Under the pieces are notes generated by a model. It saw only the letters and a program-made list of their open reading frames with translations, did not search any database and was not told the DNA's origin. This document shows, piece after piece, positions 1 to 8,188 of a stretch of DNA of 19,081 nt. The DNA is taken from the IMG/VR virus record IMGVR_UViG_2711768040_000017. One strand, given 5' to 3'. Both the position numbers and the translations under genes were made by a program. The stretch's first letter is position 1. The number at the start of each line of letters is the position of its first letter. This DNA comes from a virus (lineage: Duplodnaviria; Heunggongvirae; Uroviricota; Caudoviricetes).

Positions 1-2667
1 TCAGCTGATACTGATGCCTGCGGTGGCTTTCTTCATCACCACAACCAGCAAATCGCTGATACTTGCTGTGGGATACCAGTCATTTACCAGCCATGCTGAC
101 ACCGAAAACTCCAGCGTCATGTGGCCGTGACCAGCTGGCATATCAATAACACCACTGTAAATCAGCGTATTATCCAGCGCGGTACGGTTATAAATTTCAG
201 CACCATTTTTCTTCACTATCAGGCGGCATGAGGAGTAAATATCAGTATGCTCTCTCTCATGTTTAGCACCGCTGAATGCCACCGCCGGAATAACAATCTG
301 CCGGTCAAACGGCTGATCGTCATAAATCCTGACGGTAATGGTCCCTGATGGCCACCGCTCCGGTGCCCGGGAGTCCCGCGGGAAAGCCTTACCCACTGTT
401 TTGACAATATCGCCTTCAATCTGGTTGGCTGACAGTTTCCCTTTAATCTGACAGTTCTCATTTATCGTAACGTTGTTGAGCGTCCCGGCGTTCGCATTCA
501 CACTGCCACTGATATCTGCATTTTTAGCGGTCAGCTTTCCGTCCGGTGTCATGGAAAATGCAGGAGGATTACCGCCGCTGGTAATGGTGGGAGCCGTCAG
601 ATATTTCAGGAACACTTCATTCATGAATATCTGATCACCCTGACCAACAAACATCGGTTTTGTGTTGCCATTTGCAGGATTAATCATCGCAATCCTGTCT
701 GCCGCCAGCAGCACCTGACTCTGCATGCCGTCGGGGGTGTTCTCAATACCGGCACCGATACCCGCGATATAAAGGCGTCCGTCCTGCATCTGCTGCAGCT
801 TCACAGCCCACATGCTGTTCAGATTATTATTTGTATCAACCTGAACCTTCTGTATCTGCTGGATCGCTGCACTCTGGTCTTCCAGTTTCTTATTGACGGT
901 CTGTGTGATTTCATTGCTGACATCCGTAATGGACGTCCTGATTTCAGCCAGGTCAGGCGCAAGCTGACCGTTATCAATCTGCGTCCACAGCTCCTGAGCC
1001 AGATGGGTTTTCCCTATCTCGCCTTTGAAAAAATCCAGATAGCCGGATGCGTCATCACTCGGCTGACCAACAGCCTCCACGAATGCCGATTTGCCAACGG
1101 TGTTCACACTGCGAACGTAAAAATAATAATTATGGCCCGGCCTGATATTGATACTGGCGGCTATCCAGTACAGCGCCGTACCAAGATAGCGGGCTGTGGT
1201 TTCAACCTGCCTGATATCCGCAATCCGCTTTTCCGAGAACCAGAACTCAAACTGTACCGTCGGGTCATAAACGGCAAGATGCGGCGTGGCGGTTATCTGA
1301 AAATAGCCCGGCGTCAGCTCAAGCCGCGACGGCACTGCAGGTGCGGCAATCCGGAACGATACCGATGCCGGATCGCCCTGCTGCCCCCACGCATTTACCG
1401 CCCGGACTGTCAGCCTGTAGTTCCCTGGCGCCAGCTGCGTGAAGCGGTATGTGGTTTCCGTCGTCCGGGCCGTGCTGACCAGCCGCTCACTGCCGTCATC
1501 CGCTGCCACGGTCAGGCGAAGCAGGAAGCTCACGCCCTTCACCACCTTCGGCGTGTCCCAGCGCGCCAGCACCTGATATTCCCCGCTGTCTGCGGTGACT
1601 TCGGCGGTCAGGTGCTGCACCGCTGGCGGCGTGACACCATTCACCGTGCCGCTCTGGTCGCCGTCAAAGTGCGCCCCGTTATCCACGATGGCTTCTTTTT
1701 CCGGTACATGCTGCACGGCAGTGATGGCATACGTGCCGTCATCGTTCTCACGGATACTCACACAGCGGAACAGGCGCTGGCGCAGCGTCGGCAGCTTCAG
1801 CCCCCACACACTGTATTCTGCAACGCCGTCAGGAACCCGGTTCACTTTCACCTTAAGTCCGTCGGTGACGGACTGAACCTCCACGCTGACCGGATTACCA
1901 CTTCCGTCAACCAGGCTTATCAGCGTGGTACCGGAGGATGGCAGCGTGATTTCACGGTCGAGCGTCAGCGTCCGGGTCTGGCTGTTCACCGCCAGCACGC
2001 GACCACCGGTGCTGATACCGGCATAGTCATCATCGCAGATTTCAATGACATCCCCCGGTACATGGCGAAGCCCTTCCGCACCCACGCTGAAGTCCACGGT
2101 CTGCGTCTCCAGCAGTTCCGTTTTAATCAGCCACAGCCCGGCGCGGTGTGCCTGCCCCCGGCTGGTACAGCCAAAGGCATCCATCTTCGTGACATTACGA
2201 CCGTAACGGGCAATGGCCTGCGTATCTTCAACAAGCTCTGTCGCCGTCTCCCAGCCGTTGTCCGGGTCAATCCAGTTCACCTCAACGGCATTATGGCGGT
2301 CCTTCAGGGCGCTGAAGCTGTAGCGGAACGGCGCGCCATCATCCGGCATCACCACATTACTGCGGTTATAGGTGATATGTTCTGTCGCTGACCACGTTCG
2401 ACACACCACTCTGATTTTTCTGTTAATACCCGGCGGGCGCCAAAAAAAAGATTTATAGCCTTCATGCCGGGCTAAAAATTTTTCAAATGAATCACGTTCA
2501 TTCGCCTCAACTTTGAAATCACAGGTGAAAACGCGCAGAGAATGATTAAGTCCATTTGGACTTCGTTGCTCATAACCATCGCCAAATCTTACAGTTTTTA
2601 TCGATGGTTTATTTTCTGTTTTCATTCCATCCTCTGGTAACCAGTGAAATTCTTCCGTATTAGCCAC
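1..2667 (-). CDS. J: Chimeric tail-tip ORF: gpM-like N-terminus (~95 aa) fused in frame to the C-terminal ~790 aa of host-specificity protein J (central tail fibre). Probable GTG start overlapping the tape-measure stop.
   Basis: N-terminus ([31 protein letters not shown]) parallels lambda gpM motif for motif. From ..[37 protein letters not shown].. onward it is near-identical, as recalled, to lambda gpJ up to a diverged C-terminal receptor-binding end. Stop codon at 1-3. Confidence 0.8.
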
Positions 2668-5600
2668 TTAACATTCCCCCATCACGTCGCATATTTAACA
2701 GATTGCCCTGCACCCGCTGATCAACCATCCCCATAAGTGCTTTTATTGCCTGAGGGCCAATCTCTCCATTCTGGCCGTCATTTTGAATAGTGATTTGGTA
2801 TACGGGGGCATAGGTAATATCTCCGCCTCCATTACCACTTTTACTATTAATAGCTCTGACACCAAGAGAACCATCGGAAGTTCGTGTTAATGGCATAATG
2901 GCTTCCGGTCCAGCCTCACCAAAAACACCAGCCCCTTTTGCAAAAGCAAAAAATTGCGGGGAATCATAAATACCGTTCGAATACGTGCTCAATGACGGAG
3001 ACTCATAAACACCGCCCTTTGCATTCGGAATAAATTTACTAATAGCACTCCCGATAGTTCCTAAAATCCCCCCAGAAGAACTGTTACTAATGCTGTCGAA
3101 AATCCCAGTAATTGAAGCCTTTAATGCTATTCGACTAAGATCCGAAATCACGGAAGTAGCGAAAGAACGAAAATTTGCCTTGCCTGTCGTGACAAAATCA
3201 CCCAGCGCATCGGTCATCCCATCAAACATCTGAGTCGTGGTTGATTTTATCTGCTCACTGATATCCTTAGTGTCATCCAGCCAGTTATTGAATCCCTGGG
3301 AGGCACCACTAACCCAGTCTCCTGCCTGAATATCGAGCTGCTCGTTTTTCTGTCTGACAATTTCTTTTTCCCGTTCCAGAGCATCATTCAGAGCCTGCAT
3401 TTTCTCTTGAAAAACATGATCTGACATTCCACGGGATTTATCTGCATAGTCACGTTCAAGTTGCAGACGCTGATTGTTATATCCATGTTCAATCCGCAGT
3501 AATTCCTGCTGGCGTTGCTGATTTTTATCGCCAACCCCATAACCAGCAATCTGAATATCATACCCCTGCTGACGATTATCAATCGAAGCCTGCAATGAAT
3601 CACGCCATGCTGTTATTTCGGCGGATTCCTTGATTAGCCTGTTATTTTTTTCAATCGCAACATTTTTCTCCATCAACGTGGTTATTTCTTCCCGGTGTAA
3701 GAGAAGCGATTTCTGATCCTGGGTTAATTTCGATGATGGTCGTGACTCTAGGTCGGCAATCCGCTGACGCCACTTAACCAGTTCCTGTTCAGAGGAACTT
3801 AATTTAACGGTCAACTCAACTTGTGAACTTAGTAACGCATTCTGTTGATTCAGATGATCAATCATTCGTTGGGCTGCATCATCAGAATAATCTTTCGCCT
3901 TTGGTTGCTTTGGATCTTTATAACGCTCATTTATTTGAGCGATAAGATTATTATATTCTTCCTTTGAATACTGATTCTTTAGCTTTTCCAGTTTTGCAAG
4001 TTCACTAGCTCTCTGCTGCTCCCGGGTCTGATATTGTTTTGAAAAGGCATCTGCTCTCTGTCTGAGTTCAATTCCTTCCTGTTGTCGCTTGTTGTAATCG
4101 TTTATTGATGAATTTAGTACGTCCTGAGCAATTTTTTCTGCTTGAAGTACGCCCAATTGCTGCTTTAATCGTGCCAGCCTTTTATTTTGAGCTCCGCCAT
4201 CTCCAATGCCACCTAACCCGAAAACTCCGGATCGGGTATTTTTTTCTATTTCATCAATTTGACGGAGAACATCTGAGATTTTTTGATCAAGGGAGGCCTC
4301 ACGGCCAATATCCAGCATGGAATCCCATGCCCATTTTGCGGAGTCTGCGACAGCTTTCCATGCAGTCTCAAGATAACCAAGATTTTCTTTAATCTGGTTG
4401 GTGCGCTGGATCATTGAGGATGAGTATTCTTCTGTCGCAATGCGGGCGGCCTCCTGCTGGTTCCCTTCATCCTGTAGCGCCTTAATCTGGTTATAAGTCG
4501 CAAGTGTCAGAAAATGGTACTGATCATTAAGTTTTGATATGGCACTGACAGGATCCTTTGCAATTTCATTGAAGTCATTAACCAGTTGTTCGGTTGATAT
4601 TCCTGTTACTTCGCTCGTTTTTACTATCGCTGTCGTCACTTGCTCCAGCGAACTGCTCGCTACCTTTCCCGAACGCACAAGCTGATTTAATACTGCCGCC
4701 GCAGCACCAGTTGTCGAATCAGCCGCATTCCCGGCACGTTGAGCTAAATCGCCCAATTGCCCGCTGGTTGTCCCCAACTGATTTCCGGTAAGAATAAGAG
4801 ATTTATTAAATTCGTCCTGCTCCTGAGAGCCTTTATAGTAAGCCAGTCCTAAGACCCCAACGGCTGCTGCGGCCAGGGTAAAAGGATTAATTAATCCCAG
4901 CACATAAGAACCTACCCCTTTGATCGCCGGGCCAATCCCACCGAACATATCTTTTAGCTGGCCGCCCTGCTGCATTAACACCATAAATGGCGACTGACCA
5001 GTGGACAACCCAACAACAATATCCGTCATTTGTGCAGGCAACATGCGCATAGCAAAAGCCGTTTGTTTTGCCGACATTCCGGTTTTGCTTAATTGTGATT
5101 GAGTAACCTCAAGCTCACTCCGCATAGCACGAAGTTTTCCAGAAAGCTCCTCATACATTTCAGGAGAAAGCATCCCCTTAGCTTTTGCTTCATTGAGCTG
5201 TTTCTGTTGTTCTACCAGACGATTAAAAGCAGTTCCGACAGGATCAAGTTGAGCAATCAGACGTTGCAAAGCAACAACCTGTTCATCATGCGCTTTTGCT
5301 GCTTCTCGCTCTGCCTGAGCCTCTCCGGTAAGCTCTCGCCGTGTTTCCTGTATTTTTCGGCTATAATTCTCAAACTGAGAACCATTTATTTTCCCGGATG
5401 CAAACGCAGCATTAAGTTCATCATGCTGTTGTTCAAGATTTCTTAGCGCCGCAGCCAGAGGGTCGATCTTGTCCAGCATTCTTTGAAAGGCCTGAGCCTG
5501 CGCTTCCTGCTGGGCGGCAGCAAGTTTTCCGGCCTTCTCGGCTTCTCTCTGCGCTTGCGCAACCCCGCTCAATTCCTCTGTGGTTTCATTAAGTTTACGG

Positions 5601-5893
5601 ACAAGAAATTCATATTCTTCTTTATCAATAAGCCCTTTATCGAAAAATTTCTTTAATTCAGAATAGCGTCGACCGACAGTATCAATTGCGGCACCAACTG
5701 GATCAATAGCTGCTTTTAATTTTGCGAGCGCGTTCTTCTCATCTTCTGTTGCCTTAGTCACTTTCCCTGCGCTATTTGCAGCAGTTTCCCCAGCCTGCGT
5801 CATTTTGACTAATGAGGAGGTCAGATTGTCAGCATTATTTTTCGCTCCAGTGCTATCAATAATTATTGCGAGACGCGAGGTTTGCTCTGCCAT
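2660..5893 (-). CDS. Tail tape measure protein (gpH-like), 1077 aa
   Basis: Long coiled-coil-rich N-terminal half with three tandem ~75-aa repeats, a hydrophobic/Gly-rich central segment, and a position directly downstream of the G/GT chaperone pair and upstream of the M/J tail-tip gene. AGGAG Shine-Dalgarno 8-9 nt before the ATG. Confidence 0.9.
5083..5710 (-). repeat. Three diverged tandem coding repeats (~225 bp each) inside the tape measure gene
   Basis: Protein repeats [12 protein letters not shown].., [19 protein letters not shown].., [19 protein letters not shown].. each followed by ..AQAxREAxKA. The DNA shows the repeated ggatcaa/gggtcga cores. Coordinates approximate. Confidence 0.5.
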
Positions 5894-5904
5894 TTATTAA
5901 AACT

Positions 5905-5938
5905 CCTGACAACAAAAAACCCACCGCGAAGTGGGTTT
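5905..5938 (-). terminator. Intrinsic-terminator-like hairpin in the 165-bp gap between the GT chaperone stop and the tape-measure start
   Basis: Minus strand reads aaacccac-ttcgcg-gtgggtttttt-gttgtc: 8-bp stem, 6-nt loop, T-rich tail, immediately upstream of the tape-measure RBS. Confidence 0.4.
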
Positions 5939-6058
5939 CAGGCGACATAATAGTAGATATAGCGATTACGAGGCCACGCAATGCTTTTCTCCAGGAGCAT
6001 CATCGATTTAATTAAAGACACCATCACATCTCTGTAACAGAGTGTACGTAATTAACAA

Positions 6059-6379
6059 CTACACACACTGCTCCTGAAAATACTGGTCATCCAGTGCAAA
6101 GATCACTGCTTCAAATTCATCGCGCTCAATCAATACCGGATGAGTGGCTAAATATTCATTTATCTCTGTCAGAGATAAAGGCAAAGGCACCCCAGCCATT
6201 CCAGCATAACGTCGGGCACGGGATATTACCGAATAGGCGTACAACAACTCCTTAAGCACCGGGTCTATTTCTGGTTCCGGTATCGGTGGCAACCTGAGTT
6301 TTTCTCGCTTCCATCTTGCCTTTTCCCCCCTTTCTCCCCCGAACTCCGATAACCACCGCTGGGCAGCTATGGCTTTTTT
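6059..6379 (-). CDS. T portion of tail assembly chaperone GT, reached by -1 frameshift from G; not independently initiated
   Basis: After slipping at aaaaaag, the -1 frame (gcc ata gct gcc cag cgg ...) runs uninterrupted into the 77-aa ORF frame (ttg cca ccg ata ccg = LPPIPEPEID) and ends 165 bp upstream of the tape measure gene. Confidence 0.55.
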   Translation of the reverse strand, partial: KKAIAAQRWLSEFGGERGEKARWKREKLRLPPIPEPEIDPVLKELLYAYSVISRARRYAGMAGVPLPLSLTEINEYLATHPVLIERDEFEAVIFALDDQYFQEQCV

Positions 6380-6801
6380 ATCGTATCCTGCTTCTGCTGC
6401 TCTTTACCCTGGGCGATGCTGGCTGCTTCTGCAAGGATCTGCCAGTACAACTCTGGATTCTGCTTAAGCAGCGCGATCCCTCGTTCTGCCGTATATTCCA
6501 GTGCAACCTCAACACCATTAACCAGTTCACCAACCCCTTTCCAGTCTTTCAGCAGATAACGAGCGGCATTATCAATGAGTAAATCATCAACAGAATCCAC
6601 CTCGGAAACCTTTGAAATATCAAACTCCTTCGTTCCGACGTGCAAACTGGCATCCATTTTCTCAATGTGGCGACGGATTAATGCATTACGGGAGCGATAC
6701 TGATCGTTATCGCTGCTTGCCACCAACAGTTTTAACCCGTCTATCCAGACTGCATGAGCAATTGATTCATCACGCAGCCGTTCATTCACGGTTTGCATCA
6801 T
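6367..6801 (-). CDS. Tail assembly chaperone (gpG-like), 144 aa
   Basis: Acidic small protein immediately upstream of the tape measure gene; its last codons (ata aaa aag cca tag) contain a canonical slippery heptamer. MMQ start, ATG at 6799-6801. Confidence 0.55.
   Translation of the reverse strand: MMQTVNERLRDESIAHAVWIDGLKLLVASSDNDQYRSRNALIRRHIEKMDASLHVGTKEFDISKVSEVDSVDDLLIDNAARYLLKDWKGVGELVNGVEVALEYTAERGIALLKQNPELYWQILAEAASIAQGKEQQKQDTIKKP
6373..6379 (-). other. Programmed -1 ribosomal frameshift slippery heptamer A_AAA_AAG (G to GT)
   Basis: Plus-strand ctttttt at 6373-6379 is aaaaaag on the minus strand, two codons before the G stop; the -1 frame is open for ~100 further codons. Confidence 0.55.
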
Positions 6802-8188
6802 TGATTTCCATCAACATTACACTCTGATTTTTTAATTCATCGATCACATCCTCTGGACGGGAATCCTGATCGATAAATTTCAACGCCTGCAACACCCGAA
6901 CCGCATCAATCTGACGTATATCACCGCCCTGACGCAATGACTGAACAGCCAGCGCGGAGGATGAGTCAAACACCTGGGCAGATACATCCAGTTCAGTGCG
7001 CACATCCACATTGCCACCGCAACTCTCTCCGCTCCATTCCGCCATTATCTGGAGAATATTATCGAGGGCATCTTCGAGGGAGTTCGCCATTGTATAAAGC
7101 GGCGAGTGTTCCTGCATCCGCTCTTCATTAGTCTGATCAACAGATTTGGTGGATGTATTTTCAGCCCGCAGAAGTTTAGCGCCGGCATGACGCATCTGAT
7201 TTTCCAGCTTCTCAAGTGATGTTTCGCCAGATTCTATCGCTGCGCCACTATGTTCAACATATTCGAGGCCATTTTTTGTTCTGTCCTCAAAAATCGTAGC
7301 CGTGGATGCACCAACCGTCAGTTCTTCATTCCTGTCCAGCCCGTAGGCCACCAGCAATGGAACGCGGGCAACATGAAGAATATTGTCCTGCTCGCTCTGG
7401 CTTTGCCAGTGCTTGATATTCAGCAAGCCAAGATTAAGCAATGGCGGTGTACCACGCATAAACCCTGTTTTCTTCGTATACAGTGTTACCAGAGGAATAT
7501 CATCACGGCTGGTATTCCATGACTCATGAAGCATCCAGACAGATTCGCCATTAGTACCTTCGCTGCGTCGATAAATTTCTACTCGACGGGGCATAATATG
7601 GCGGATCTGCTCCACCTTCTTCTGCCCGAAATCATCACCATCAATAATGATGACCTCTTTTATACGCAAATCAGTGAGAACAACTTTCCCTTTTTCAACT
7701 TTCGATTTCCATCCAATAACCTGGCGTGGATTCAGCATCGTAACGTACGGGCGACCACCGGCCGCGTTTTCATCGGCTTTTGTCCGAATCTCGTTCATAT
7801 CCGTTCGTGGATAGTCCACCAGCGCATGTGCCACACCATACTGAAATGCGAGACTGAAAAATTGCTGCGCCCACACATCCAGTCGGCTCCCCTCCATGTC
7901 GATATTTTCTGCATATTCCCTGATTTTTTCCGGCGTTTCCTCACTCAATACTGTCGGCTCTGCAAATATGCGCCCAATATTTTGTTTGATGCTTTCTTCA
8001 TACACAGGAAGTAACGTAGCCACAGACAGGCGTTTTTTATAAGCGTCTTCATCTTCATTAGGCCATTTGGGGAGATAATTTTCCCCCTGCCTGCGCATTT
8101 CAAGCGTACCGCCCATCAATGCGTCGTTAATATCCCACGCCTCCAGCATATCGTTATAGTCGAGGTTGGGTGTTGATATATCAGCCAT
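6782..8188 (-). CDS. Putative portal protein (468 aa), possibly C-terminally altered
   Basis: Starts 4 nt inside the end of the terminase large subunit gene (coupled), with portal-typical size and position. No specific motif recognised by eye. Its last 6 codons overlap the G chaperone start. Confidence 0.45.
   Translation of the reverse strand: MADISTPNLDYNDMLEAWDINDALMGGTLEMRRQGENYLPKWPNEDEDAYKKRLSVATLLPVYEESIKQNIGRIFAEPTVLSEETPEKIREYAENIDMEGSRLDVWAQQFFSLAFQYGVAHALVDYPRTDMNEIRTKADENAAGGRPYVTMLNPRQVIGWKSKVEKGKVVLTDLRIKEVIIIDGDDFGQKKVEQIRHIMPRRVEIYRRSEGTNGESVWMLHESWNTSRDDIPLVTLYTKKTGFMRGTPPLLNLGLLNIKHWQSQSEQDNILHVARVPLLVAYGLDRNEELTVGASTATIFEDRTKNGLEYVEHSGAAIESGETSLEKLENQMRHAGAKLLRAENTSTKSVDQTNEERMQEHSPLYTMANSLEDALDNILQIMAEWSGESCGGNVDVRTELDVSAQVFDSSSALAVQSLRQGGDIRQIDAVRVLQALKFIDQDSRPEDVIDELKNQSVMLMEINDANRE

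What the first reader, a model, noticed from the sequence alone, without database searches (positions are those of the whole stretch)
6059..6801. G/GT programmed -1 frameshift with the slippery site at the G stop
The heptamer A_AAA_AAG (minus strand, plus coordinates 6373-6379) sits two codons before the G stop. The -1 frame then stays open for about 100 codons and ends just before the tape measure gene. This is the conserved arrangement in tailed phages that produces G and a low-abundance GT fusion. The T portion has no start of its own and the ORF track shows it as a separate 77-aa ORF.
Basis: partly seen in the sequence, partly recalled or inferred. Interest (0 to 1): 0.4.

Follow-up and report, generated by a model that had tools for sequence, protein, structure and literature searches.

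The report
Phage tail chaperone frameshift, relic copy
This is the well-known ribosomal frameshift that tailed phages use to make two versions of a tail-assembly helper protein, here unannotated but intact at the slip site, inside a broken E. coli prophage that can no longer build tails.

Summary
A_AAA_AAG lies at 6379-6373 (minus strand), in phase with ORF 6801-6367. One sense codon and the TAG stop follow it. The -1 frame is open only from 6403 and runs to the stop at 6061-6059, so any frame change must occur within 34 nt.

The reading as a lambda G/GT-type -1 frameshift is well supported:
- The conceptual fusion aligns as one stretch to PHROG 313 (tail assembly chaperone).
- In intact relatives the pair lies between the tail tube and tape measure genes.
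- Of 99 related sequences, 95 keep A_AAA_AAG at the same aligned codons and 3 have G_GGA_AAG.
- The G stop sits at varying distances, yet the -1 frame is conserved as protein straight from the heptamer.
- No start codon is conserved upstream of the conserved T core.
- No stimulatory RNA structure was found.

Corrections:
- The window is a defective Rac-like E. coli prophage.
- "G" (the YdaY family) is a chimera. A 6058-bp deletion joined codon 19 of the minor head gene to codon 25 of G and removed the capsid-to-tube genes.
- T ends 165 nt before the tape measure gene.

So this is an ordinary, unannotated member of a known kind, and here a recent relic. One thing is unexplained: three independent deletions share the same endpoint in G.

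The parts
6367..6801 (-). Chimeric 'G' ORF (144 aa). Codons 1-19 come from the minor head protein gene. Codons 20-144 are residues 25-149 of the YdaY-family tail assembly chaperone.
   Evidence: Translation. phrog_313 'tail assembly chaperone' E=1.6e-40 and phrog_241 'head morphogenesis' on residues 1-25. Junction alignment against intact E. coli L73. Pfam PF27119 Phage_YdaY precomputed on homologues.
6742..6743 (-). Deletion junction (shared TA) of a 6058-bp deletion. It removed the minor head, scaffold, capsid, connector, terminator and tube genes and G codons 1-24.
   Evidence: base-by-base comparison with L003. (gene order in the intact relative). Only 2 of 5426 E. coli genomes carry this junction.
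6373..6379 (-). Slippery heptamer A_AAA_AAG, in phase with G (ATA AAA AAG).
   Evidence: Conserved at the same aligned codons in 95 of 99 related sequences and replaced by G_GGA_AAG in 3. The last four bases, A_AAG, are invariant in 36 unique sequences.
6370..6403 (-). The only stretch where the G frame and the -1 (T) frame are both open (34 nt).
   Evidence: Stop map of the three frames.
6059..6372 (-). T segment read in the -1 frame (104 codons plus the TAG stop at 6061-6059). The conserved core is YAxxVISRxRxYAGMxGxPLP...ALDD.
   Evidence: phrog_1189 E=1.4e-36. Pfam Phage_TAC_18 at 20.6 bits, below the cut-off of 27. The fusion extends the phrog_313 match to profile positions 22-246 of 258. 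Third-codon-position variation in this frame.
5894..6058 (-). Spacer between T and the tape measure gene. It holds a 28-aa ORF (ATG 6024 to TGA 5940-5938) followed by a terminator-like hairpin at 5939-5916 with a U run.
   Evidence: Spacer length among relatives ranges from 29 to 570 nt and sometimes holds small ORFs.
2660..5893 (-). Tape measure protein gene (1077 aa), the presumed client of G/GT.
   Evidence: Pfam TMP_2 E=1.6e-81 and Tape_meas_lam_C E=3.9e-26. phrog_24.
6782..8188 (-). Portal gene. Because of the deletion it is now the immediate upstream neighbour of 'G', and its 3' end overlaps the start of the chimeric ORF.
   Evidence: phrog_145 portal E=1.1e-164. DUF4055. Annotation.

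Best explanation
The region is the tail-assembly-chaperone cassette of a Rac-like lambdoid siphophage. Gene G (the YdaY family) and its -1 frame extension T together encode G and a G-T fusion.

Inferred mechanism, by analogy with lambda G/GT. Ribosomes translating G reach ATA AAA AAG. With tRNA-Lys in the P and A sites, a small fraction slip back one base (AAA_AAG re-pairs as A_AAA_AA). They then read GCC ATA GCT... and make ...DTIKK-AIAAQRW..., a fusion of 247 aa here and 252 aa in intact phages. The rest terminate two codons later. G and the G part of GT would coat the tape measure protein, and the T part would recruit the tail tube protein. The site appears to work without an RNA structure.

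Shown here: the sequence anatomy, the homology, the synteny in relatives and the conservation pattern.

Inferred: that slippage happens, its efficiency, and the roles of G and T.

In this window the cassette is a recent relic. The prophage lacks the tube, capsid and several tail genes, and G begins with 19 codons of the minor head protein gene. The signal is sequence-intact and would still be decoded if transcribed, but it cannot serve tail assembly.
For: Anatomy
- The heptamer is in phase, and the two frames are both open over only 34 nt.

Family
- G matches phrog_313 'tail assembly chaperone' at E=1.6e-40.
- The conceptual fusion matches the same profile as one stretch (residues 7-244 to profile 22-246 of 258). 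The score rises from 140 to 156 bits, and phrog_8233 rises from 16.9 to 34.2 bits.
- An AlphaFold model of intact G gives only weak Foldseek hits in BFVD (E 2e-3 to 0.6, TM about 0.4). Most of those hits are unnamed or uncharacterised, but nearly all the named ones are tape-measure or tail assembly chaperones.

Synteny
- Intact relatives have the order tube, YdaY, T, tape measure.

Conservation of the site
- Of 99 sequences, 95 have A_AAA_AAG at the same aligned codons, 3 have G_GGA_AAG (lambda's own site) and 1 has G_GGG_AAG.
- The codon before the heptamer ends in A (GTA in 18 unique sequences, ATA in 17) when AAA_AAG follows. It is GTG in all 3 (4 with phage TCUAN1) when GGA_AAG follows. 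This keeps the X_XXY pattern.
- The G stop lies 10, 28, 82 or 112 nt after the heptamer in different lineages, while the heptamer stays put.
- Distant relatives (25-40% identity, Acinetobacter and Pseudomonas phages) switch frame at the same aligned residue.

Coding evidence for T
- The -1 frame is conserved as protein from the first codon after the heptamer (A-I/L-x-A-Q-x-W-L-x-E-F-G-G-E...), whereas frame 0 is not.
- Column entropy by codon position in the -1 frame is 0.41, 0.33 and 1.03.
- The only start-type codon conserved in all 46 unique T sequences is Met61, inside the conserved core.

Literature
- Lambda G/GT makes two products at about 30:1, and the arrangement is widely conserved despite low sequence similarity. 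[quoted passage not shown]
- Chaperone frameshifts are often left unannotated (PMC10885494).
Against: - No product was observed, and everything about decoding is inferred.
- There is no BLASTP similarity to lambda G or T. There is no NCBIfam hit, and the Pfam Phage_TAC_18 hit on T is below threshold.
- The structure model is of middling confidence (pLDDT 64), with no PDB match.
- Some relatives have non-canonical sites at the homologous place: G_GAA_AAG, C_GCA_AAG+TAA and G_GGG_AAG.
- GenBank and RefSeq annotate T, when at all, as a free-standing hypothetical protein.
- In this window the native G N-terminus and the partner tube gene are missing.
Confidence: 0.88

Rival explanations
1. T is an ordinary separate gene translated from its own internal start (TTG 6292 or GTG 6259, as some annotations have it). 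The heptamer would then be incidental.
For: the ORF listing gives a 77-aa TTG ORF. PGAP calls a 66-aa GTG ORF in strain L73 and GenBank a 61-aa ORF in phage SPF_0923. Database entries for T are free-standing hypothetical proteins of 60-138 aa.
Against: The 27 codons between the heptamer and TTG 6292 are conserved as protein, with variation concentrated at third positions, and no start lies upstream of them in the window. Candidate starts at those columns occur in only about half of 46 unique sequences, and the only universal one is Met61 inside the conserved core. The annotated lengths differ from record to record, as expected for arbitrary start calls. The fusion aligns colinearly to a 258-position chaperone profile.
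Confidence: 0.05
2. The G-T fusion arises by transcriptional slippage: RNA polymerase adds one A in the A6 run. This gives the same protein sequence as ribosomal slippage.
For: The site holds six consecutive A's. Adding one A to the mRNA would give an identical ...IKKAIAA... product (my reasoning). Transcriptional slippage on A/T runs is a known recoding route (PMC5009743).
Against: Relatives with G_GGA_AAG, G_GAA_AAG or C_GCA_AAG at the homologous position have runs of only 3-4 A's and still keep the G/T arrangement. What is invariant is the A-site motif A_AAG in phase, a ribosomal feature. To my knowledge, six A's is shorter than the runs that usually give efficient slippage by E. coli RNA polymerase.
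Confidence: 0.05
3. Nothing is recoded. The heptamer is a chance match and the -1 ORF is a leftover open frame in a decaying prophage.
For: AAAAAAG is not rare in the window (8 copies against 5.3 expected). The prophage is defective, with two internal deletions.
Against: The same arrangement is present in isolated phages and in prophages of about ten genera. The site and the -1 protein are conserved. The window is 100% identical to phage SPF_0923 over 5800-6743, so this copy has not decayed at the site.
Confidence: 0.02

Closest known systems
Bacteriophage lambda G/GT programmed -1 frameshift (Levin, Hendrix and Casjens 1993; Xu, Hendrix and Duda 2004, 2013, 2014; as summarised in PMC5009743)
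   Same: - Two overlapping ORFs lie directly upstream of the tape measure gene and, in intact relatives, directly downstream of the tail tube gene.
- The second ORF is in the -1 frame without its own start.
- The slippery heptamer lies a few codons before the G stop: 10 nt here, 22 nt in lambda.
- No RNA stimulator is evident.
- Product sizes are similar: G 149 aa and GT 252 aa in intact relatives, against 140 aa and about 279 aa in lambda.
- Some family members use lambda's exact heptamer, G_GGA_AAG.
   Different: - There is no detectable pairwise sequence similarity to lambda G or T.
- The heptamer here is A_AAA_AAG.
- T is followed by a 165-nt spacer with a small ORF and a terminator-like hairpin, rather than overlapping the tape measure gene as in lambda.
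- This copy has a chimeric, N-terminally replaced G and no tube gene.
E. coli dnaX gamma/tau -1 frameshift
   Same: It uses the identical heptamer, A_AAA_AAG, decoded by the same tRNA-Lys (my own knowledge; shiftiness in E. coli per PMC5009743).
   Different: - dnaX relies on an upstream Shine-Dalgarno-like element and a downstream stem-loop for about 50% efficiency.
- Here no downstream structure beats shuffled controls (z 0.3-0.4) and none is conserved.
- An AGGA lies 6 nt upstream in enteric members, but it is part of the conserved Gln-Asp/Glu codons (CAG GAT or CAG GAA) and is absent in divergent members.
- A low, lambda-like efficiency is therefore expected (inference).
E. coli K-12 Rac prophage ydaY / tmpR remnant
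   Same: It is the same protein family (PGAP names the window's gene ydaY). The prophage type is the same, with trkG and ynaK cargo. It is also a deletion fusion: the K-12-type protein is a ParB/YnaK N-terminus fused to YdaY (P0019).
   Different: The K-12-type fusion joins at a different point of G (before NALIRRHIEKM). The window keeps a full-length tape measure gene and the complete T frame.

Membership tests
Tailed-phage tail assembly chaperone G/GT (-1 programmed frameshift cassette) | Located between the major tail (tube) gene and the tape measure gene | tested here: met
   Intact relatives have the order tube, YdaY, T, tape measure (E. coli L73; phages Aurca01, TCUAN1 and Gungnir39). 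In the window only the tape measure side survives, because the tube gene is deleted.
Tailed-phage tail assembly chaperone G/GT (-1 programmed frameshift cassette) | Two overlapping ORFs, the second in the -1 frame and lacking its own conserved start | tested here: met
   The overlap is 34 nt, and the -1 frame is open from 6403 to 6062. The first start-type codon is TTG 6292. No start is conserved upstream of the conserved core in 46 unique sequences.
Tailed-phage tail assembly chaperone G/GT (-1 programmed frameshift cassette) | In-phase slippery heptamer X_XXY_YYZ inside the overlap | tested here: met
   A_AAA_AAG at 6379-6373, in phase with G.
Tailed-phage tail assembly chaperone G/GT (-1 programmed frameshift cassette) | Site and arrangement conserved among relatives while the flanking sequence diverges | tested here: met
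   Of 99 sequences, 95 have A_AAA_AAG and 3 have G_GGA_AAG. The preceding codon's third base matches the heptamer's first base. The frame switches at the same aligned residue in relatives of 25-40% identity. The -1 frame shows a coding pattern of variation.
Tailed-phage tail assembly chaperone G/GT (-1 programmed frameshift cassette) | Sequence or profile homology to recognised chaperone families | tested here: met
   G matches phrog_313 'tail assembly chaperone' at E=1.6e-40, and the fusion matches at E=2e-45 over profile positions 22-246 of 258. Weaker or negative results: Pfam Phage_TAC_18 below cut-off, no NCBIfam hit, no similarity to lambda G or T.
Tailed-phage tail assembly chaperone G/GT (-1 programmed frameshift cassette) | Chaperone-like fold of G | tested here: inconclusive
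   AlphaFold2 model of intact G: pLDDT 64, pTM 0.63. No PDB match. BFVD hits are weak (E at or above 2e-3, TM about 0.4) and mostly unnamed, though nearly all the named ones are tape-measure or tail assembly chaperones.
Tailed-phage tail assembly chaperone G/GT (-1 programmed frameshift cassette) | A low-abundance G-T fusion protein is actually made and is needed for tail assembly | not testable with these tools
   This needs a reporter assay, mass spectrometry or genetics in an intact relative.
dnaX-type stimulated -1 frameshift | Downstream stem-loop stimulator 5-9 nt after the heptamer | tested here: not met
   Folds of 53 and 103 nt downstream are no better than shuffles (z 0.39 and 0.31). 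The alignment consensus is -3.7 kcal/mol with essentially no covariation.
dnaX-type stimulated -1 frameshift | Upstream Shine-Dalgarno-like stimulator | tested here: inconclusive
   AGGA lies 6 nt upstream in Escherichia, Citrobacter and Raoultella copies. It lies within conserved Gln-Asp/Glu codons and is absent in the Siccibacter and Serratia copies.

The most novel reading that the evidence does not exclude
The chaperone gene of Rac-like prophages contains a site-specific breakage or recombination hotspot at codons 24/25 (...CCTGTAG|ACGGGTTAAAAC...). Three different left partners were joined to exactly this point, each with only 2-3 nt of shared sequence (TA or TAG): the minor head gene in this window, terL in strain AHB21, and terS in two draft genomes. 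A fixed-end mechanism could repeatedly produce head-gene::G' fusions. These leave the G'/T frameshift cassette and the tape measure gene under head-gene expression signals in cryptic prophages.
Probability: 0.3. Interest if true: 0.45.

Novelty: new member of a known kind. Interest (0 to 1): 0.18.

Why it matters
Mostly as an annotation fix. In this widespread family of E. coli, Shigella, Citrobacter and Klebsiella prophages and phages, the chaperone is labelled 'protein YdaY', often from an internal Met. T is missing or labelled 'hypothetical protein', and no joined G-T product is annotated in any record inspected. About 1100 of 5426 complete E. coli genomes carry this DNA.

The family also offers a natural series of shift sites at one homologous position: A_AAA_AAG, G_GGA_AAG, G_GAA_AAG, C_GCA_AAG+stop and G_GGG_AAG. 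These could be used to calibrate frameshift predictors.

It does not change what is known about frameshifting or tail assembly. In this particular prophage the signal has no assembly role left.

Tried and rejected
Single-sequence folds are no better than shuffles. RNAalifold on 13 diverse members gives -3.7 kcal/mol and no meaningful covariation. An Rfam scan of 5700-7000 finds only a sub-threshold hit on the terminator-like hairpin. Rejected.
- Direct homology to lambda G and T by BLASTP: none.
- NCBIfam: no hit for G, T or the fusion.
- PDB by sequence profile: nothing meaningful.
- AlphaFold2 plus Foldseek against PDB: no match. Against BFVD: only weak chaperone-enriched hits.
- Literature search for a description of YdaY as a frameshifted chaperone: none found in the held library.
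- Fused G-T proteins in the protein database. P0002 and similar Logan-only entries read through several frames at homopolymer runs and look like assembly errors. P0001 fits a genomic 35-nt deletion, inferred from its protein sequence alone. Neither is an annotated frameshift product.
- Mechanism for the recurrent deletion endpoint. I looked for longer homology, dyad symmetry and Chi. I found only TA/TAG microhomology, a flanking TTAAAAC direct repeat and a 7-of-8 Chi-like GTTGGTGG in the wrong orientation to explain it. It remains unresolved.
- An IMG/VR scan for further junction variants found only the intact context.

Full report
**What is in the sequence.**

On the minus strand the text reads ...CAG GAT ACG ATA AAA AAG CCA TAG. 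ORF 6801-6367 encodes 144 aa ending ...QDTIKKP. The heptamer A_AAA_AAG occupies 6379-6373 and is in phase as X_XXY_YYZ. One sense codon and the TAG stop follow it.

A stop map of the three frames shows that the -1 frame is closed at 6406-6404 and then open to TAG 6061-6059. The two frames are both open only over 6403-6370 (34 nt), and the heptamer lies inside that stretch. From the heptamer the -1 frame reads KK-AIAAQRWLSEFGGERGEKARWKREKLRLPPIPEPEIDPVLKELLYAYSVISRARRYAGMAGVPLPLSLTEINEYLATHPVLIERDEFEAVIFALDDQYFQEQCV. Its first possible start is TTG 6292, which gives the 77-aa ORF.

AAAAAAG on its own is not unusual in the window: 8 copies against 5.3 expected. Its phase, its place in the overlap and its conservation are what carry weight.

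**What the window is.**

The region is 100% identical to the chromosome of E. coli 101EVA, and over 5800-6743 to Salmonella phage SPF_0923.

The annotation of 101EVA and family searches give this minus-strand order:
- lysis genes, trkG and a ynaK fragment
- terS (10567-9473), terL (9501-8191) and portal (8188-6782)
- 'ydaY'
- the tape measure gene (5893-2660)
- fragments of gpM-like and gpJ-like genes, then lom

This is a Rac-like lambdoid prophage. In intact relatives (E. coli L73) the portal is followed by the minor head protein, scaffold, P22-type capsid, four small connector genes, tail terminator and tail tube. Only then come ydaY, a small 'hypothetical protein' and the tape measure gene.

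**The 'G' ORF is a chimera.**

A base-by-base comparison shows two blocks. From 6840 to 6742 the window follows the portal and minor-head side of the intact prophage. From 6743 downward it follows the G side, with a shared TA at 6743/6742.

A 6058-bp deletion joined codon 19 of the minor head protein gene in frame to codon 25 of G. This explains the phrog_241 'head morphogenesis' hit on residues 1-25. Only 2 of 5426 complete E. coli genomes have this junction, while about 1100 carry the G/T/tape-measure DNA.

A second deletion of 3198 bp, also in frame, has 7 nt of microhomology at 2367-2373. It fuses the gpM-like and gpJ-like genes.

The prophage therefore cannot build capsids or tails. The cassette is a relic, though a recent one, since it is identical to that of an isolated phage.

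**Is it a G/GT cassette?**

Family evidence:
- G matches phrog_313 'tail assembly chaperone' (E=1.6e-40, profile positions 21-149 of 258). T matches phrog_1189 (function unknown) and, below threshold, Pfam Phage_TAC_18.
- The conceptual -1 fusion matches phrog_313 as a single stretch, residues 7-244 against profile 22-246. The score is higher than for G alone, and the phrog_8233 match also lengthens. Fused proteins of this architecture are therefore already in that family.
- Homologues carry the precomputed Pfam family PF27119 Phage_YdaY.
- There is no pairwise similarity to lambda G or T. This is usual for these chaperones (PMC5009743).

**Comparative test.**

I collected 98 related loci from genomes, IMG/VR and annotated records. 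For each I located the G stop, the -1 frame and the in-phase heptamers.
- Including the window, 95 of 99 sequences have A_AAA_AAG at the codons aligned with K147-K148.
- Three (Raoultella, Serratia, Pantoea) have G_GGA_AAG, which is lambda's own site.
- One Pectobacterium prophage has G_GGG_AAG.

The G stop lies 10, 28, 82 or 112 nt beyond the heptamer in different lineages, but the heptamer does not move.

In 38 unique contexts, the codon before the heptamer ends in A (GTA 18, ATA 17) when AAA_AAG follows, and it is GTG in all 3 cases where GGA_AAG follows. Acinetobacter phage TCUAN1 adds a fourth GTG GGA AAG. This matching of the preceding codon's third base preserves X_XXY.

The last four heptamer bases are invariant in 36 unique sequences, while third positions around them vary freely.

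Translations show the -1 frame conserved as protein from the very first codon after the heptamer: A-I/L-x-A-Q-x-W-L-x-E-F-G-G-E-x-G-E-K-A-x-W-x-R-E-K-L-x-L-P-P-I-P-E-P. Frame 0 dissolves into variable tails and stops. Column entropy by codon position in the -1 frame is 0.41, 0.33 and 1.03, a coding signature.

Among 46 unique full-length T sequences, the only start-type codon present in all is Met61, inside the conserved core.

Relatives at 25-40% identity switch frame at the same aligned residue:
- Acinetobacter phage TCUAN1 uses G_GGA_AAG.
- The P. syringae phages use G_GAA_AAG.
- Erwinia phage Gungnir39 uses C_GCA_AAG followed at once by TAA.

The constant element is the A-site A_AAG.

**Mechanism.**

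The best account is tandem -1 slippage of tRNAs on A_AAA_AAG. This yields G (terminating two codons later) and a minor G-T fusion with the junction ...DTIKK/AIAAQRW.... The fusion is 247 aa here and 252 aa in intact phages.

By analogy with lambda (PMC5009743), G and the G part of GT bind the tape measure protein and the T part recruits the tube protein. These roles are inferred, not tested.

No stimulatory RNA is evident. Folds downstream are no better than shuffles and no structure is conserved. An AGGA 6 nt upstream lies within conserved Gln-Asp/Glu codons and is absent in divergent members. I therefore expect a low, lambda-like efficiency rather than a dnaX-like one.

**Rivals.**
- Independent initiation of T, as implied by the free-standing 'hypothetical protein' calls of 60-138 aa. 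It is contradicted by the conserved, start-less 27 codons upstream of the first candidate start.
- Transcriptional slippage on the A6 run. It would give the same protein, but it does not fit relatives whose sites have only 3-4 A's.
- A chance match. It is excluded by the conservation.

**Annotation status and novelty.**

PGAP calls 'protein YdaY' (119 aa, from an internal Met) and no T in this genome. Phage records call two hypothetical proteins, or 'tail assembly chaperone (x2)', without a join. I found no paper describing YdaY as a frameshifted chaperone. Missing joins of this kind are common (PMC10885494). This is a new, unannotated member of a very well-known kind, so interest is low.

**Structure check.**

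AlphaFold2 on intact G with a 12-sequence alignment gave pLDDT 64. Foldseek found nothing in the PDB. In BFVD it found only weak hits, mostly unnamed, though nearly all the named ones are tape-measure or tail assembly chaperones. The result is consistent but inconclusive.

**Things seen on the way.**

1. Three independent deletions end at the same 1-3 bases of G (...CCTGTAG|ACGGGTTAAAAC...):
   - the minor head gene joined to G, in this window
   - terL joined to G, in E. coli AHB21; 2 of 5426 genomes
   - terS joined to G, in two draft genomes

   Each shares only TA or TAG with G, and the left sites read TA(G/T)CC. I found no mechanism.

2. The 165-nt spacer between T and the tape measure gene holds a 28-aa ORF and a terminator-like hairpin. 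The spacer varies from 29 to 570 nt among relatives and sometimes carries small ORFs, as a moron slot would.

3. Protein P0001 from E. coli NB16F79 looks like a natural genomic G-T fusion. It fits a 35-nt deletion between GCAGAAGCAG repeats, but this is inferred from the protein sequence only.

Noticed in passing
window 6742-6743 (junction); compare L099 and L100/L101: Three independent deletions with different left partners end at the same 1-3 bases of the chaperone gene (intact: ..CCTGTAG|ACGGGTTAAAAC..). The partners are the minor head gene (this window), terL (E. coli AHB21) and terS (two draft genomes). Each shares only TA or TAG with G. This may be a breakage or recombination hotspot; no mechanism was found.
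   Followed up: partly
window 2367-2373 (ORF 1-2667, minus strand): A second internal deletion of 3198 bp, in frame, with 7-nt microhomology. It fuses the N-terminal ~100 codons of the gpM-like minor tail gene to the C-terminal ~790 codons of the gpJ-like tip gene. The result is one 888-aa ORF that PGAP splits into two pseudogenes.
   Followed up: partly
window 5894-6058 (hairpin 5916-5939; small ORF 5938-6024, minus strand): The spacer between T and the tape measure gene holds a 28-aa ORF (MVSLIKSMMLLEKSIAWPRNRYIYYYVA), followed directly by a 10-bp GC-rich hairpin and a U run. Among relatives the spacer varies from 29 to 570 nt and sometimes encodes small proteins (for example a lipoprotein-like signal in Dryocola, L017). 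It looks like a moron insertion slot inside the late operon.
   Followed up: partly
window 6388-6397 and 6423-6432 (direct repeats GCAGAAGCAG); protein P0001: A 240-aa protein from E. coli NB16F79 reads ..ILAEA|GYDKKAIAAQRW... This fits a 35-nt deletion between these repeats that puts T in frame with G at the DNA level, making a natural GT-only allele. It is inferred from the protein; I did not inspect the DNA.
   Followed up: no
L103/L106 (P. syringae phages), L105 (Erwinia phage Gungnir39), L015 (Pectobacterium prophage): At the position homologous to the heptamer these relatives carry non-canonical sites: G_GAA_AAG, C_GCA_AAG immediately followed by TAA, and G_GGG_AAG. The first two keep the A-site A_AAG, whereas G_GGG_AAG does not. 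They may rely on single-tRNA slippage, or may be decaying copies.
   Followed up: partly
window 6441-6801 versus the PGAP call (L002 9668-10027): RefSeq annotates ydaY as 119 aa from an internal Met (MDASLHVG...), both here and in intact prophages. The native gene is 149 aa, starting at MFILNQK, 24 codons upstream of the deletion junction. The reference protein WP_012565075.1 thus appears N-terminally truncated.
   Followed up: partly
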